This document shows, piece by piece, positions 51,301-57,300 of a stretch of 64,000 nt of DNA. The position numbers were made by a program. Origin of the DNA: Escherichia coli. Its GTDB lineage: Bacteria; Pseudomonadota; Gammaproteobacteria; Enterobacterales; Enterobacteriaceae. Numbering within the stretch: the first letter of the stretch is position 1; each line of letters begins with the position of its first letter. Location of the stretch: assembly GCF_050920415.1 (NCBI RefSeq), contig NZ_CP169309.1. The stretch is one strand, 5' to 3'.

Positions 51301-54300
51301 AGTGACCCTGAAAGATGAGAATGGCAACGGGGTTACCGGAAGAAAAGAACTTCTTAAACAGGCTGTTAAAGTAGACAACACGAAGACTGATGCTGTTAGT
51401 GCCTGGACGGAAGAAAGTGAGGGAGTTTACAAAGCAAACTATACGGCCCATCTCATTGGCGACAAATTAACGGCCCAGCTGACGATGCCCGGCTGGCAAA
51501 CCAAGCATTCGGATGCGTTCAGTATTGCGGGTGATAAAGATACCGCCAAAATCGCTGCGATGCAGATCACCGCGAATAACGCAGTCGCCAGACGCGATCA
51601 CAATACCGTCGCTGTGACGGTCAGGGACGTGCATCAAAATTTACTGCAGGGACAAAATGTTACCTTCACGGTCGTGAATGGTGCGGCGGTTTTTGCCGAT
51701 CCAAATGGCGGTATTGTGACGACAGATAAAGACGGGATTGCCAGCGTTAACCTTGCCAGTGACCAGGCGGTAAACAGTCTTATCAAGGCCGAGATCAATG
51801 GCAGTAGTCAGTCTGTGGAAGTGAGCTTTATCACTGGCGATATCTCGCAGCTAACCTCCACCATCAAGACGGACGATGTGTCATACACCGCGGGTGGCAA
51901 GATAAAAGTGTCAGTTACCCTTATGGATGAGCAGAAAAACCTGGTGAAAGGGATGGCTTCGCTGCTGGCGGGTAGCGGTGTGGTCGAGGTGAGCGGTACA
52001 GATAAAAATGAAACGGGTAACTGGAGCGAAGAGTCTGATGGCGTTTACACCACCACCCGAACCGCGAAGATTGCTGGCAATAGCCATTACGCCACGCTGA
52101 AACTATCGACATGGAGTAGCGCGCAGCAATCCGATGCGTATGTCATCCGCGAAAGCGGAGCTGTGCTGGCTTATTCCTCTATCGTTACCGACAAAACGAC
52201 CTATACCGCAGGCGGTGCGATTAAAGTTACGGTAACGCTCAAGGATAGCTATGAAAACCTGGTCGGGGGGCAACGAGACGCTATCAGCCAGGTTATCCAG
52301 CTGCCAAATACAAAAGCGGAAAGCATTACCTGGAATGAAGATCAAAAAGGCATTTATACCGCAACGTATACCGCTTTACTTCCTGGCACCGGTTTAAAAG
52401 CACAGCTACAGATGTCCGGCTGGGCGAGCGCCCTGACTTCAAATGTTTACAGTATTAGTGGCGATGCCGCCAGCGCACAAATCGTCGCGATGCAAGTGAC
52501 AACGGGTAGCCTGGATGTGCTGGCCAATGGTAGCGATCAACATACGGTGAATGTTCGGGTGGAAGATCAGTTTGGCAATGTGCTGCCAGAGCAGACCGTC
52601 ACCTTTACGGTGACGAAGGGGGCGGCTGTATTTGCCAATGCAGGGCAGAGTGCAGACATCAGGACGGATGTGCATGGCATGGCGGAGGTTGTGCTGAGTA
52701 GTACCGTAGCGGATGCCAGCACTGTTGAGGCTAAGATCAATCAAAGCAGTGATAGTAAAACGGTGAACTTCGTTGCTGATGTCAGCACGGCGCGTATTGC
52801 TGATCTGGGGGTAACGCAGGATAACGCGGTGGCAGACGGCGCGACAGAGAACATGCTGTGGGTGAAAGTCACCGACGCGTTTGGTAATGCGCTGGGCGGG
52901 CAGACGGTCAGCGTGTTGGCGGACAACGGCGCAACGGTCGCTCCGACGGTGATTACAGAGCCGGACGGCACAGTGGAGATCCCTGTCACCAGCCAGACGG
53001 CGGGCACCAGTGCCGTCACTGCAACCATCAACAGCAGCAGCCAGAGCCGGGATGTGACGTTTATCGCCGATGTCAGGACGGCGCAGATCGCGAGTCTGGA
53101 GGTGACGCAGGATAACGCCGTGGCTGACGGCGCAATGGCGAACACGCTGCGGGTGAGGGTGACGGATGCGTTCGGTAATGTGCTTGCCGGGCAGACGGTC
53201 AGCGTGACGGCAGACAACAGCGCAACGGTCACTCCGACTGTCATCACAGGGCAGGACGGGACGGTGGAGATCCCTGTCACCAGCCAGACCGCCGGAATCA
53301 GTGCGGTCACTGCCAGCATTAACAGCAGCAGCCAGAGCCGGAACGTCACGTTTGTCGCCGATGTCAGGACGGCGCAGATCGCGAGTCTGGAGGTGACGCA
53401 GGATAACGCCGTGGCTGACGGCGCAATGGCGAACACGCTGCGGGTGAGGGTGACGGATGCGTTCGGTAATGTGCTGGCCGGGCAGACGGTCAGCGTGACG
53501 GCAGGCAATGGCGCAACGGTCGCTCCGACGGTCACCACGCAACCGGACGGCACGGTGGAGATCAGTGTCACCAGCCAGACGGCCGGAACCAGTGTGATCA
53601 CCGCCAGCGTCAACAACAGCAGCCAGAGCCGGAACGTGACGTTTATTGCGGATGTCAGCACGGCGCAGATCGCGGATCTGGTCGTTAGCCAGGATAACGC
53701 GGTGGCAGACGGCGCGACGGCGAATACGCTGCGGGTGAAGGTCACCGATGCGTTCGGGAATGCACTTGCCGGGCAGACGGTCAGCGTGTTGGCAGGCAAC
53801 GGCGCCACGACTGCTCCGACGGTCACCACGCAGCCGGATGGCACGGTGGAGATCTCTGTCACCAGCCAGACCGCCGGAATCAGTGCGGTCACTGCCAGCA
53901 TTAACAGCAGCAGCCAGAGCCGGACCGTGACGTTTATCGCCGATGTCAGGACGGCGCAGATCGCGGATCTGGAGGTGACGCAGGATAACGCCGTGGCTGA
54001 CGGCGCAATGGCGAACACGCTGCGGGTGAGGGTGACGGATGCGTTCGGTAATGTGCTTGCCGGGCAGACGGTCAGCGTGTTGGCAGGCAACGGCGCCACG
54101 ACTGCTCCGACGGTCACCACGCAGCCGGATGGCACGGTGGAGATCTCTGTCACCAGCCAGACCGCCGGAATCAGTGCGGTCACTGCCAGCATTAACAGCA
54201 GCAGCCAGAGCCGGACCGTGACGTTTATCGCCGATGTCAGGACGGCGCAGATCGCGGATCTGGAGGTGACGCAGGATAACGCCGTGGCTGACGGCGCAAT

Positions 54301-57300
54301 GGCGAACACGCTGCGGGTGAGGGTGACGGATGCGTTCGGTAATGTGCTTGCCGGGCAGACGGTCAGCGTGACGGCAGACAACAGCGCAACGGTCACTCCG
54401 ACGGTCACCACACAGCCGGACGGCACGGCGGAGATCAGTGTCACCAGCCAGACCGCCGGAACCAGTGTGATCACCGCCAGCGTCAACAACAGCAGCCAGA
54501 GCCGGAACGTGACGTTTATTGCGGATGTCAGCACGGCGCAGATCGCGAGTCTGGAGGTGACGCAGGATAACGCCGTGGCTGACGGCGCAATGGCGAACAC
54601 GCTGCGGGTGAGGGTGACGGATGCGTTCGGTAATGTGCTTGCCGGGCAGACGGTCAGCGTGACGGCAGACAACAGCGCAACGGTCACTCCGACGGTCACC
54701 ACACAGCCGGACGGCACGGCGGAGATCTTTGTCACCAGCCAGACCGCCGGAATCAGTGCGGTCACTGCCAGCATTAACAGCAGCAGCCAGAGCCGGAATG
54801 TCACGTTTATCGCCGATGTCAGGACGGCGCAGATCGCGGATCTGGAGGTGACGCAGGATAACGCCGTGGCTGACGGCGCAATGGCGAATATGCTGCGGGC
54901 GAGGGTCACCGATGCGTTCGGTAATGCGCTTGCCGGGCAGACGGTCAGCGTGTTGGCGGACAACGGCGCAACGACTGCCCCGACGGTAATCACAGAGCCG
55001 GACGGCACGGTGGAGATCAGTGTCACCAGCCAGACGGCGGGAGCCAGTACTGTCACTGCCAGCATCAACAGCAGCAGCCTGAGCCGGAACGTGACGTTTG
55101 TCGCGGATGTCAGGACGGCGAAGATCGCGGATCTGGTGGTCATTAAGGACGGCTCAGTGGCAGATGGCGCGATGGCGAACACGCTGCGGGTGAAAGTCAC
55201 CGACGCGTTCGGCAATGCGCTGGCCGGACAGACGGTCAGCGTCTCAGCGGGCAACGGTGCAGCGGTTGCCGCGACGGTTATCACCGGGCCGGACGGCGCG
55301 GCAATAATCACCGTCACCAGCCAGACGGCGGGCATCAGTGCCGTCGCCGCCAGCATCAACAACAGCAGTCGGAGCCAGGATGTGACATTTATTCCGGATG
55401 TCAGCACCGCGAAGATAGCGGATCTGGTGGTCATCAAGGACGGCTCAGTGGCAGACGGTTCGATGGCGAACACGCTGCGGGTGAAAGTCACCGACGCGTT
55501 CGGCAATGCGCTGGCCGGACAGACGGTCAGCGTCTCAGCGGACAACGGGGCAGCGGTTGCCGCGACGGTTATCACCGGGCCGGACGGCGCGGCAATAATC
55601 ACCGTCACCAGCCAGACCGCCGGAGCCAGTACGGTCACTGCCAGCATCAGCAACAGCACTCTGAACCAGAACGTGACATTTATCCCGGATGTCAGCACCG
55701 CGAAGATCGCGGATCTGGTGGTCATTAAGGACGGCTCAGTGGCAGATGGTGCGATGGCGAACACGCTGCGGGTGAAAGTCACCGACGCGTTCGGCAATGC
55801 GCTGGCCGGACAGACGGTCAGCGTCTCAGCGGACAACGGGGCAGCGGTTGCCGCGACGGTTATCACCGGGCCGGACGGCACCGTGGAAATCTCCGTCACC
55901 AGCCAGACCGCCGGAGCCAGTACGGTCACTGCCAGCATCAACAACAGCATTCTGAACCAGAACGTGACATTTATCCCGGATGTCAGCACCGCGAAGATCG
56001 CGGATCTGGTGGTCATTAAGGACGGCTCAGTGGCAGACGGTTCGACGGCGAACACGCTGCGGGTGAAAGTCACCGACGCGTTCGGCAATGCGCTGGCCGG
56101 ACAGACGGTCAGCGTCTCAGCGGACAACGGTGCAGCGGTTGCCGCGACGGTTATCACCGGGCCGGACGGCACCGTGGAAATCTCCGTCACCAGCCAGACG
56201 GCGGGCATCAGTGCCGTCACTGCCAGCATCAACAACAGCAGTCTGAACCAGAACGTGACGTTTATTGCTGATGTCAGCACGGCGAAGATCGCGGATCTGG
56301 TGGTCATCAAGGACGGCTCAGTGGCAGACGGTTCGACGGCGAACACGCTGCGGGTGAAAGTCACCGACGCGTTCGGCAATGCGCTGGCCGGACAGACGGT
56401 CAGCGTTTCAGCGGGCAACGGGGCAGCGGTTGCCCCGACAGTCACCACGCAGCCGGACGGCACCGTGGAAATCTCCGTCACCAGCCAGACGGCGGGCATC
56501 AGTACAGTTACCGCAACCATCAACAACAGCAGTCTGAGCCAGAACGTGACGTTTATTGCTGATATCAGCACGGCGAAGATCGCGGATCTGGTGGTCATTA
56601 AGGACGGCTCAGTGGCAGACGGTTCGACGGCGAACACGCTGCGGGTGAAAGTCACCGACGCGTTCGGCAATGCGCTGGCCGGACAGACGGTCAGCGTTTC
56701 AGCGGGCAACGGGGCAGCGGTTGCCGCGACGGTTATCACCGGGCCGGACGGCGCGGCAATAATCACCGTCACCAGCCAGACCGCCGGAGCCAGTACGGTC
56801 ACTGCCAGCATTAACGGTAGCAGCCAGAGTCAGAGCATCACCTTTGTACCGGGTGATGCATCGCAGCTCACTTCAACCGTTGAAACAAATAAGTCGAACT
56901 ATACGGTTGGAGAGACAATCACCATCACGGTAACGCTCCGGGATGCGTTCGATAATCTGGTAACCGGTGCAGCTTCACAGTTAGCCGCTAATGGTGTGCT
57001 TACGGTGGCTGGCACCGACCCGTCAGAAACGGGAAGCTGGATTGAATCAGGTGGCGTGTATACCACAACCCGTATGGCGACGATTGCCAGTACCAATCAG
57101 CACGCCAACCTGCAATTGCAGACGTGGAGTGATGGTGTAACGTCAGATCGCTATGACATACAGTCCGGTTCTCCGGCGCAAGCCACATCAACTATCGCTA
57201 CGGATAAAAACGCCTACACCGCTGGCGACACTATAACCGTCGCCGTGACGCTGAAAGACGCGCACGGTAACCTGGTTGAAGGGGGCGAGTCCTTACTGTC

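What the first reader, a model, noticed from the sequence alone, without database searches (positions are those of the whole stretch)
52760..56835. 13 near-identical 309-bp tandem repeats in the adhesin gene, forming two subfamilies
The repeats are close to identical at the nucleotide level (several units exact), unlike the more divergent Ig domains before and after, which points to recent expansion or concerted evolution by recombination. The array is a likely hotspot for copy-number variation that changes adhesin stalk length, and for assembly collapse. The first ~8 repeats carry VRTAQIA.LEVTQDNAVADGAMANTLRVRV and the last ~5 carry VSTAKIADLVVIKDGSVADGS.ANTLRVKV, with an abrupt switch near 55080, consistent with two blocks amplified independently.
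Basis: seen in the sequence. Interest (0 to 1): 0.5.

Follow-up and report, generated by a model that had tools for sequence, protein, structure and literature searches.

The report
Variable Ig-domain repeat array in IatC
This is a real run of 14 (not 13) tandem 291-bp repeats, each encoding one Ig-like domain of the stalk of the known E. coli surface adhesin IatC (also called Air or EaeX). The number of repeats differs widely between strains, which is ordinary, already catalogued behaviour for this kind of protein.

Summary
The array is real, but several details in the finding are wrong. It has 14 units of 291 bp (97 aa) at 52778-56851, not 13 units of 309 bp. The units are not near-identical: pairs share 75-96% of nucleotides and no two units are the same. 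The two subfamilies exist, as units 1-8 and 9-14, with the switch at 55106.

The gene is iatC (= air/eaeX), a named inverse-autotransporter adhesin of E. coli beside its regulator gene eilA. Each unit is one Big_1 Ig-like domain.

Copy number does vary. Fourteen in-frame arrays from complete genomes carry 6-20 units. Two otherwise identical alleles differ by exactly two units around a chimeric unit, the signature of unequal crossover. Draft assemblies break or collapse inside the array.

"Recent expansion", "concerted evolution" and "two independently amplified blocks" are not supported. Synonymous divergence is 0.2-0.25 within subfamilies and 0.63 between them. 85% of units have a closer relative in another strain than in their own array. 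The units are recombinant mosaics.

The repeat variation very probably already sits in the Periscope Protein catalogue.

Two side observations:
- Third-codon-position GC content (GC3) jumps to 0.79 exactly within the array.
- The window copy of iatC carries a 1-bp frameshift that the RefSeq record lacks.

The parts
49325..58042 (+). iatC (= air / eaeX) reading frame as it stands in the window. It is cut short by a 1-bp deletion at 57994; in RefSeq NZ_CP169399.1 the gene is intact at 49325..59002 (3225 aa).
   Evidence: ORF list. The NCBIfam IatC N-terminal model NF040978 scores 3063 bits against a cut-off of 2400. RefSeq annotation. Base-by-base comparison with the record.
57976..59001 (+). 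3' part of iatC, displaced into another frame by the window's 1-bp deletion. It encodes the last Ig-like domains, Invasin_D4 and the C-terminal tip.
   Evidence: ORF list. Weak IatC match. Invasin_D4 (PF21764) at residues 530-605 of the post-array segment of the intact copy.
49769..50590 (+). Outer-membrane beta-barrel translocator (IAT_beta), residues 149-422.
   Evidence: Pfam PF11924, E = 4.9e-108.
50933..52777 (+). Six single-copy, mutually divergent Ig-like domains (Invasin_D3 / Big_1) between the barrel and the array.
   Evidence: Pfam hits at residues 537-633, 653-727, 745-836, 843-919, 950-1041 and 1057-1150. The Big_1 domains among them share 39-40% of residues with an array unit.
52778..56851 (+). 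Tandem array of 14 units of 291 bp (97 aa). Each unit is one Big_1 Ig-like domain plus a linker of about 8 residues.
   Evidence: Big_1 PF02369, E about 1e-21 to 1e-22 per unit. Invasin 1CWV matches at E = 1e-20. GC is 0.63 and GC3 0.79, against 0.49 and about 0.55 in the rest of the gene.
52778..55105 (+). Units 1-8, subfamily A (LEVTQDNA-type N-terminal segment). Units 1 and 8 are outliers.
   Evidence: Identity matrix, variable-site table, motif table.
55106..56851 (+). Units 9-14, subfamily B. It combines the LVVIKDGS N-terminal segment with the central cassette SVSA(D/G)NGAAVA(A/P)TV. That cassette occurs only in a minority allele lineage.
   Evidence: Units at least 90% identical to units 10-11 occur in only 17 of 712 genomes that have the array.
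54839..54871 (+). Five bases in unit 8 at which the window and the RefSeq record of the same strain differ. The window version is identical to the same stretch of units 5 and 6.
57994..57994 (+). Site of the 1-bp deletion relative to RefSeq (AACGGCAA-GGGCAAT against AACGGCAATGGGCAAT) that frameshifts iatC in the window.
   Evidence: Homologues read through in the RefSeq frame.
59053..60750 (-). eilA, a HilA-like regulator convergent with iatC. It is reported to control eaeX/air expression.
   Evidence: NCBIfam NF009037, 934 bits. RefSeq annotation. PMC4210603, citing Sheikh et al. 2006.
52741..56811 (-). Antisense 1356-codon open frame across the array. It is a shadow of the GC-rich sense frame, not a gene.
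   Evidence: The same frame carries 4-16 stops in eight of the thirteen other arrays and 0-2 in the other five, mostly alleles of the window's own lineage. Its low pN/pS (0.41) is what a frame sharing third positions with the sense frame would show.

Best explanation
The array is the variable-length middle of the stalk of IatC (Air/EaeX), an E. coli inverse-autotransporter (type Ve) adhesin. An N-terminal beta-barrel sits in the outer membrane. The passenger is a chain of Ig-like domains ending in an Invasin_D4 domain and a C-terminal tip.

Fourteen of those domains are tandem Big_1 units encoded by 291-bp repeats. The units share long exact stretches, so homologous recombination between misaligned units (unequal crossover or slippage) adds or removes whole units in frame. 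In-register exchange shuffles segments between units. The outcome across the species is an old, mosaic array whose unit number varies from 6 to 20.

Shown: gene identity, domain identity, copy-number variation, mosaicism and one crossover product. Inferred: that the domains form a rod of roughly 3.5-4 nm each (by analogy with invasin), so that the observed range changes the reach of the tip by about 50 nm, and that this matters for adhesion or biofilm formation.
For: Gene identity:
- NCBIfam IatC model at 3063 bits. The first 3376 bases of the gene (49325-52700) are 100% identical to iatC of strain MFDS1022581, and the whole gene is 99.9% identical.
- The conserved nepI-iatC-eilA locus is seen in every genome fetched that still has eilA.

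Domains:
- IAT_beta, E = 4.9e-108.
- Each unit is Big_1, E about 1e-21 to 1e-22.
- Invasin_D4 near the C-terminus.
- Invasin 1CWV matches at E = 1e-20.

Copy number:
- Array lengths are exact multiples of 291 in 14 complete genomes: 6, 7, 11, 12, 14 (five genomes), 16 (two), 18, 19 and 20 units. The annotated CDS lengths agree.

Mechanism:
- TUM10828 and ESC818 are identical in 3 kb of flank and in 13 units. TUM10828 unit 7 matches ESC818 unit 7 over its first 215 nt and ESC818 unit 9 over its last 108 nt. The two alleles differ by exactly two units.
- Neighbouring informative sites are less incompatible than in permuted order, p <= 0.001.
- Exact in-register shared runs reach 178 nt.

Coding constraint:
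- dN/dS is 0.25-0.35 in the sense frame.

Literature:
- IatC is surface-exposed and promotes biofilm when over-expressed (PMC6714894).
- Air is listed as an adhesin of enteroaggregative E. coli (PMC3256949).
- The Periscope Protein table lists an E. coli IAT_beta/Big_1 protein with a 97-aa repeat and 3-12 copies (PMC8201768 supplement).
Against: - No experiment here shows that length changes phenotype.
- The units are only about 84% identical at the DNA level, lower than in classic Periscope Proteins, so the rate of change may be modest.
- Goh et al. 2019 stated that they found no evidence for variation in tandem-repeat number in IatC. They had only 4 complete genes, and the complete genomes examined here contradict the statement.
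- In the window the gene is frameshifted at 57994. If that is real, this strain's protein would lack its tip.
- Pfam did not detect the LysM domain or the C-type lectin cap reported by others.
Confidence: 0.85

Rival explanations
1. One reading: two blocks (A and B) were each amplified recently and independently in this lineage, or the array is kept near-identical by concerted evolution.
For: In this strain the two types are sorted into two uninterrupted blocks of 8 + 6. Units within a block are more alike (82-96%) than units across blocks (75-82%).
Against: - Synonymous divergence inside the blocks is 0.20-0.25 and no two units are identical.
- Every window unit has a nearest relative in another strain (94.5-100%) that is closer than its nearest paralogue in the same array (85.6-96.2%).
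- Sister alleles show 9+5, 6+6 or interleaved orders.
- Identity within arrays (84.5%) is about the same as between arrays (83.8%).
Confidence: 0.07
2. Assembly artefact: the number or order of units in this record is wrong because reads were mis-placed within the repeats.
For: - The window and RefSeq NZ_CP169399.1 differ at 12 positions in 64 kb. Five of them lie within 33 bp of unit 8, where the window version copies units 5 and 6.
- Draft assemblies give proteins that end inside the array (one cluster has 1955 members) and complete-looking 1959-1964-aa forms with a single unit.
Against: - Both versions of this strain have 14 units in frame.
- Three other assemblies of the same allele lineage also have 14 units, with unit-by-unit correspondence.
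- The units differ enough (4-25%) for long reads to place them.
- Array lengths are exact multiples of 291 in 14 genomes.
Confidence: 0.05
3. The main role of the array is sequence diversification of an exposed antigen rather than length variation. Segment shuffling among units would generate new surface variants. This is not exclusive of the best explanation.
For: - 168 distinct unit proteins among 195 units.
- About 25 highly polymorphic positions with two to four common alternatives, while 22 positions are invariant.
- Segments recombine in many combinations.
Against: - dN/dS is 0.25-0.35, so there is no overall excess of amino-acid change.
- Most alternatives are conservative.
Confidence: 0.2
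4. The long open frame on the minus strand (52741-56811, 1356 codons) is a second gene overlapping the array.
For: It is open across nearly the whole array in this strain, with 1 stop against 9.3 expected after synonymous-codon shuffling. Its apparent pN/pS is 0.41.
Against: - The same frame has 4-16 stops in eight of the other arrays.
- A low pN/pS is expected in the antisense frame that shares third positions with the sense frame.
- High GC removes stop codons.
- The sense frame has strong Pfam and PDB matches.
Confidence: 0.01

Closest known systems
IatC / Air / EaeX of E. coli (SMS-3-5 EcSMS35_4024; EAEC 042 air)
   Same: It is the same gene. It has the same NCBIfam model, the same locus between nepI and eilA, and the same architecture. 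The SMS-3-5 gene length of 8,802 bp equals the 11-unit allele found here in strain LS45.
   Different: This allele has 14 units and belongs to a minority lineage (17 of 712 genomes) carrying the SVSA..AAVAATV cassette in its B units. The window copy is frameshifted at 57994.
Periscope Proteins (Whelan et al. 2021), cluster 44 'UNK_Invasin', UniProt A0A376HGL9
   Same: An E. coli protein with IAT_beta, Big_1 and Invasin_D3 domains, a 97-aa Big_1 repeat, 3-12 copies and identity values of 0.84-0.86. The class concept also fits: a surface stalk of tandem domains whose number varies by intragenic recombination.
   Different: I could not compare sequences, so the identity with IatC is inferred from repeat length, domains and species. 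The range found here is wider (6-20). The units are mosaic and moderately diverged rather than highly identical.
YrIlm, the invasin-like inverse autotransporter of Yersinia ruckeri
   Same: An inverse autotransporter with more than 20 tandem Ig-like domains of about 300 bp. Repeat number varies between strains, and short-read assemblies under-count it (PMC6868369).
   Different: YrIlm repeats are identical at the DNA level. IatC units differ by 4-25% and show no homogenisation within a genome.
Invasin (Y. pseudotuberculosis, PDB 1CWV) and intimin
   Same: The same secretion type, and the Big_1 / Invasin_D3 domains form the stalk. The only PDB sequence match of the units is invasin, at E = 1e-20.
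   Different: Invasin and intimin have 4-5 mutually divergent domains of fixed number. IatC has about 25-27 Ig-like domains, 14 of them a variable tandem array.
The IatC orthologue of Escherichia albertii
   Same: The same locus (adeQ-yicN-gene-eilA-like regulator), 66% identity over the N-terminal 1150 aa, and also a tandem array that varies in number.
   Different: A different domain was amplified: a 103-aa (309-bp) Invasin_D3-like unit, 3-6 copies, 96-100% identical at the DNA level. There is no 97-aa Big_1 array.

Membership tests
Inverse autotransporter (type Ve) adhesin, IatC subgroup | IAT_beta outer-membrane barrel located N-terminal to the passenger | tested here: met
   PF11924 at residues 149-422, E = 4.9e-108
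Inverse autotransporter (type Ve) adhesin, IatC subgroup | Score above the curated cut-off of the NCBIfam IatC N-terminal model | tested here: met
   NF040978 scores 3063 bits against a cut-off of 2400. All other IAT models fall below their cut-offs.
Inverse autotransporter (type Ve) adhesin, IatC subgroup | Passenger built of Big_1 / Invasin_D3 Ig-like domains | tested here: met
Inverse autotransporter (type Ve) adhesin, IatC subgroup | Conserved chromosomal position (nepI upstream, eilA convergent downstream, eip translocon genes beyond) | tested here: met
Inverse autotransporter (type Ve) adhesin, IatC subgroup | N-terminal LysM domain and C-terminal C-type lectin cap, as reported by Goh et al. 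2019 | tested here: inconclusive
   Pfam listed neither LysM nor a lectin domain at E <= 10. Invasin_D4, which precedes the lectin domain in invasin, is present. The reported domains rest on InterPro analysis in PMC6714894.
Inverse autotransporter (type Ve) adhesin, IatC subgroup | Surface exposure and adhesion or biofilm phenotype | not testable with these tools
   Shown for the SMS-3-5 allele in PMC6714894
Periscope Proteins | [quoted passage not shown] | tested here: met
   Units are 97 aa. Adjacent-unit identity is 71-94%, mean 86.8%, and only the unit 1/2 (79%) and A/B boundary (71%) pairs fall below 80%. The mean over all pairs is 79.3%.
Periscope Proteins | Repeat number varies between strains | tested here: met
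   6-20 units in 14 in-frame arrays from complete genomes
Periscope Proteins | Variation arises by intragenic homologous recombination | tested here: met
   Chimeric unit at a two-unit difference between otherwise identical alleles; mosaic test
Periscope Proteins | The repeats form a rod that projects a distal functional domain | not testable with these tools
   Inferred from the invasin match and from the position of the array between the barrel and the Invasin_D4/tip
Concertedly evolving (homogenised) tandem array | Units are more alike within a genome than between genomes | tested here: not met
   Identity is 84.5% within arrays and 83.8% between. 85% of units have a closer relative in another array. 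Only 1 identical pair was found within arrays against 24 between, among the first 10 arrays.

The most novel reading that the evidence does not exclude
The jump in third-codon-position GC content (GC3) confined to the array may be a footprint of GC-biased gene conversion acting where units recombine.

- GC3 is 0.79 inside the array, about 0.55 before it and 0.50 just after, and the change falls at the array edges.
- An independently amplified, different domain in the E. albertii orthologue shows the same rise: GC3 0.76 against 0.54-0.61 for its closest single-copy E. coli counterparts.
- GC3 also tracks internal repeat identity in Salmonella and Klebsiella inverse autotransporters (Spearman rho 0.65-0.84 across the four genes).

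If this reading is right, variable-length adhesin arrays would be within-gene natural experiments for biased gene conversion in bacteria.
Probability: 0.3. Interest if true: 0.55.

Novelty: already known. Interest (0 to 1): 0.2.

Why it matters
There are three practical consequences.

- **Gene calls in drafts.** iatC/air is used as a virulence marker for enteroaggregative E. coli. Short-read assemblies routinely truncate or collapse it, so gene presence, length and 'partial' calls in draft genomes are unreliable.
- **A published statement needs correcting.** Goh et al. 2019 reported no evidence that tandem-repeat number varies in IatC. Complete genomes contradict this: the range is 6-20 units, and one allele pair shows a direct crossover product.
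- **Stalk length.** The length range, inferred at about 50 nm, could change how far the tip reaches past LPS and capsule. That is testable with natural alleles.

None of this is conceptually new. It is a further, well-resolved example of the Periscope Protein principle in a Gram-negative inverse autotransporter. The array-confined GC3 step is the only element I did not find described.

Tried and rejected
- **Scan of one genome per species.** I scanned with a two-unit query to find the array's source. It returned only a chance hit in a candidate-phylum MAG, because the method needs exact 8-residue words. This says nothing about distant relatives.
- **Search of 1.84 billion representative proteins**. 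The best non-Escherichia relatives (Klebsiella, Salmonella, Pseudomonas, Aeromonadaceae, Yersinia) are only about 45-52% identical. A recent import of the GC-rich units is therefore unsupported, but not excluded.
- **Chi sites as a recombination driver.** There are none in the array or anywhere after 46973.
- **Rfam.** No RNA family matches in 49000-59200.
- **Antisense ORF.** Rejected as a gene.
- **Species-wide survey with an array-less flank query in 'spread' mode**. Most rows were wasted on genomes that have only the core nepI flank, and it gave 8 usable spans. I did not repeat it with an island-specific query, so the copy-number distribution rests on 14 in-frame arrays, two disrupted arrays and two truncated ones.
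- **Fuzzy-regex anchoring.** It timed out and was replaced by a Hamming scan.
- **Structure prediction.** Not run, because Pfam and PDB matches already fix the fold.

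
Full report
**1. Observation**

Tandem Repeats Finder reports a single array at 52778-56829 with period 291, 13.9 copies and 89% matches. The repeat finder independently finds 14 copies with a start-to-start spacing of exactly 291 bases. Phased on the translated frame, the units start at 52778 and end at 56851.

The units are not near-identical. Pairwise nucleotide identity is 82-96% among units 1-8, 86-96% among units 9-14 and 75-82% between the two groups. 119 of 291 columns vary, no two units are the same, and what is shared exactly are segments of up to 178 nt.

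The two subfamilies are real, as 8 + 6 units with the switch at 55106. The flanking Ig-like domains are indeed far more divergent. They share 39-40% (Big_1 type) or 22-24% (Invasin_D3 type) of residues with a unit, against a mean of 86.8% between adjacent units.

**2. What the gene is**

The frame 49325-58042 scores 3063 bits on the NCBIfam model for the N-terminal 1065 residues of the inverse-autotransporter adhesin IatC (cut-off 2400). Every other inverse-autotransporter model falls below its cut-off.

The window is the first 64 kb of the chromosome of E. coli strain MFDS1022581 (NZ_CP169399.1). There the gene is annotated iatC, 49325..59002, 3225 aa. RefSeq names the same gene 'EaeX/Air' in other genomes.

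It lies between nepI and the convergent regulator gene eilA, followed by type III translocon genes. EilA is reported to modulate eaeX expression (PMC4210603, citing Sheikh et al. 2006). Air is the 'enteroaggregative immunoglobulin repeat protein' used as a marker of enteroaggregative E. coli (PMC3256949). Goh et al. 2019 named IatC and showed that the SMS-3-5 allele (8,802 bp) is surface-exposed and promotes biofilm when over-expressed (PMC6714894).

Pfam places the following:
- IAT_beta at residues 149-422 (E = 4.9e-108).
- Six single-copy Invasin_D3/Big_1 domains up to residue 1150.
- One Big_1 domain per array unit, E about 1e-21 to 1e-22.
- Further Ig-like domains and Invasin_D4 after the array.

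The only PDB sequence match of the units is invasin 1CWV, at E = 1e-20. Pfam did not report the LysM domain or the C-type lectin cap that Goh et al. describe.

The gene is accessory. About 750 of 5426 complete E. coli genomes have it, whereas 5404 have the nepI flank.

**3. Copy number among isolates**

I anchored on the 60 bases before and after the array in loci fetched from complete genomes.

| Strain | Units |
|---|---|
| BEC1-S17-ESBL-09 | 6 |
| KE55 | 7 |
| LS45 | 11 |
| 2017-02-2CC | 12 |
| MFDS1022581, TUM10828, 2013C-4282, N96, 24A16CRGN010 | 14 |
| FDAARGOS_1285, ESC818 | 16 |
| YZMc3-1 | 18 |
| N1131 | 19 |
| ECOCN22 | 20 |

All of these lengths are exact multiples of 291, and they agree with the annotated CDS lengths.

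Other alleles are damaged:
- Strain 4973 has 4,928 bp (17 units minus 19 bp) and is annotated as frameshifted.
- K_EC180 has a decayed remnant.
- AST85 and Z0117EC0005 are truncated after seven units by a deletion that runs into the neighbouring island.

The statement in Goh et al. 2019 that there was no evidence for variability in tandem-repeat number in IatC does not hold for today's complete genomes.

The variation is very probably already catalogued. The supplementary table of Whelan et al. 2021 lists cluster 44, 'UNK_Invasin' (A0A376HGL9), from E. coli. It has IAT_beta, Big_1 and Invasin_D3 domains, a 97-aa Big_1 repeat, 3-12 copies and identity values of 0.843 and 0.856. I could not compare that sequence directly.

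**4. Mechanism**

TUM10828 (14 units) and ESC818 (16 units) are identical over 3 kb of upstream gene and in 13 units. TUM10828 unit 7 is identical to ESC818 unit 7 over its first 215 nt and to ESC818 unit 9 over its last 108 nt. The alleles thus differ by exactly two units around a chimeric unit, with the exchange inside a shared stretch. That is the expected product of unequal homologous exchange, or of slippage between misaligned units.

Within the window's array, neighbouring informative sites are significantly less incompatible than in permuted order (p <= 0.001 for all units and for units 1-8; 0.045 for units 9-14). The variable-site table shows blocks shared between different unit pairs, including across the two subfamilies. 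In-register exchange therefore shuffles segments between units.

**5. Why the 'recent expansion / concerted evolution / two amplified blocks' reading fails**

- Synonymous divergence is 0.255 among A units, 0.198 among B units and 0.629 between A and B, with dN/dS of 0.25-0.35. These are old, constrained copies.
- Across 195 units from 14 arrays there are 168 distinct proteins.
- Mean pairwise identity is 84.5% within arrays and 83.8% between arrays.
- 85% of units have a closer relative in another strain than in their own array. For the window, the nearest relatives elsewhere are 94.5-100% identical, against 85.6-96.2% for the nearest paralogue.
- The two N-terminal motifs (LEVTQDNA, LVVIKDGS) occur in all strains and are interleaved in most.
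- What is special to the window's B units is a central cassette, SVSA(D/G)NGAAVAATV, found only in a minority allele lineage. Units at least 90% identical to units 10-11 occur in 17 of 712 genomes.
- In that lineage the order is A8B6 here, A9B5 in 2013C-4282 and A6B6 in 2017-02-2CC, and it is interleaved in N96 and 24A16CRGN010.

The block arrangement is thus an inherited feature of this allele lineage that has since been reshuffled. It is not a strain-specific double amplification.

**6. Assembly reliability**

The window differs from NZ_CP169399.1 at 12 positions in 64 kb.

Five of them lie within 33 bp of unit 8 (54839-54871). There the window reads exactly like units 5 and 6, while the RefSeq copy reads LEVTQDNS, a variant seen in other strains. 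This is what mis-polishing with reads from paralogous units, or a real conversion between cultures, would look like.

One further difference is a 1-bp deletion at 57994. It splits iatC in the window into 49325-58042 and 57976-59001. RefSeq and all homologues read through.

In the protein database, many 'EaeX/Air, partial' entries stop inside the array; one cluster has 1955 members. Complete-looking 1959-1964-aa proteins carry a single unit. That equals 3225 aa minus 13 x 97, and the sources include Logan short-read assemblies. The single-unit forms are probably collapses, but I could not prove it.

The unit number of 14 in this strain is supported by both sequence versions and by three sister alleles.

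**7. Both strands and other features**

The 1356-codon antisense frame at 52741-56811 is a shadow. That frame carries 4-16 stops in eight of the thirteen other arrays and 0-2 in the other five, mostly alleles of the window's own lineage. Its low pN/pS is what a frame sharing third positions with the sense frame would show. No Rfam family matches 49000-59200.

**8. Side observation: base composition**

The array has GC 0.63 and GC3 0.79 in both subfamilies. GC3 is about 0.55 upstream, 0.50-0.60 just downstream and 0.31-0.46 in the C-terminal tip. The step falls at the array edges.

The E. albertii orthologue lacks the 97-aa array. It has an independent tandem array of a different, Invasin_D3-like unit: 103 aa, 309 bp, 96-100% identical, with protein lengths stepping 1660/1763/1866/1969 aa. 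That array also has GC3 0.71-0.77, against about 0.5 before it and 0.3 after.

The nearest single-copy counterparts have ordinary GC3:
- 0.54 and 0.61 in E. coli for the E. albertii unit.
- 0.49 in E. albertii for the E. coli unit.

In four inverse-autotransporter genes (E. coli, E. albertii, S. enterica, K. quasipneumoniae), the GC3 of a 291-nt window correlates with its best internal nucleotide match. Spearman rho is 0.84, 0.65, 0.65 and 0.84.

No homologue of the unit above about 54% identity turned up outside Escherichia among 1.84 billion representatives. There are no Chi sites in the array.

GC-biased gene conversion, proposed for bacteria by Lassalle et al. 2015 (PMC4450053), is one explanation. 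Founder composition and selection are others. I did not find this pattern described in the searched library, and the evidence here is only correlative.

**9. Verdict**

This is a real, in-frame Big_1 domain array in a named adhesin. It behaves as a variable-length stalk of the Periscope Protein kind.

Its predictions about copy-number variation and assembly trouble are borne out. Its evolutionary reading (recent, concerted, two amplifications) is not.

Novelty is low.

Noticed in passing
window 52778-56851 against 49325-52777 and 56852-59001: GC3 is 0.79 (GC 0.63) in every unit of the array but about 0.55 before it and 0.31-0.55 after it. The step coincides with the array edges. GC3 also tracks internal repeat identity in three other inverse-autotransporter genes (rho 0.65-0.84).
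   Followed up: partly
L021 3001-8910 (E. albertii CP030781.2); proteins P0087-P0120: The E. albertii orthologue amplified a different domain: 6 x 309 bp (103 aa, Invasin_D3-like), 96-100% identical. Protein lengths step by 103 aa (3-6 units). Its array also has high GC3 (0.71-0.77).
   Followed up: partly
window 57994: A 1-bp deletion relative to RefSeq NZ_CP169399.1 frameshifts iatC in the window (ORFs 49325-58042 and 57976-59001). The RefSeq copy and all homologues are intact, so this is either a sequence-version error or a real pseudogenising change.
   Followed up: yes
window 54839-54871 (unit 8); also 6629, 7006, 8889, 46478, 47595 and 59808: There are 12 differences between the window and the RefSeq record of the same strain. 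Five cluster in 33 bp of unit 8, where the window copies units 5 and 6. Two are compensating indels inside the IS621 transposase gene that RefSeq annotates as frameshifted.
   Followed up: partly
window 52741-56811, minus strand: A 1356-codon antisense open frame spans the array. It is not conserved across the species (4-16 stops in eight of the thirteen other arrays), so it is a by-product of high GC.
   Followed up: yes
L016 (AST85) and L018 (Z0117EC0005), locus positions about 8820-9120: In both genomes iatC ends after seven units at a deletion that joins the array to a remnant of the type III chaperone gene. The deletion removes the rest of iatC, eilA and the translocon genes.
   Followed up: no
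protein P0085 (E. coli, 1706 aa), around residue 830: An in-frame junction between the single-copy Big_1 domain at about residue 830 and the middle of an array unit, which removes three domains. It is either a real recombination between diverged Big_1 domains or an assembly chimera.
   Followed up: no
window 46973-64000: All 14 Chi sites (GCTGGTGG) of the window lie before 46974. There are none in iatC, eilA or the translocon genes, whose C-terminal and downstream parts are AT-rich (GC about 0.40). This fits a horizontally acquired island.
   Followed up: no
window 47044-47704, minus strand: A RelE/ParE toxin and helix-turn-helix antitoxin pair lies between yicN and nepI. The flank query covered 23% of its length in some genomes and 17% in others, including K-12, which suggests the pair is absent from many strains.
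   Followed up: no
L007 (strain 4973) array; L005 (K_EC180) array: Disrupted arrays: 4,928 bp (17 units minus 19 bp, annotated frameshifted) and an 812-bp remnant. iatC is repeatedly pseudogenised within or next to the array.
   Followed up: no
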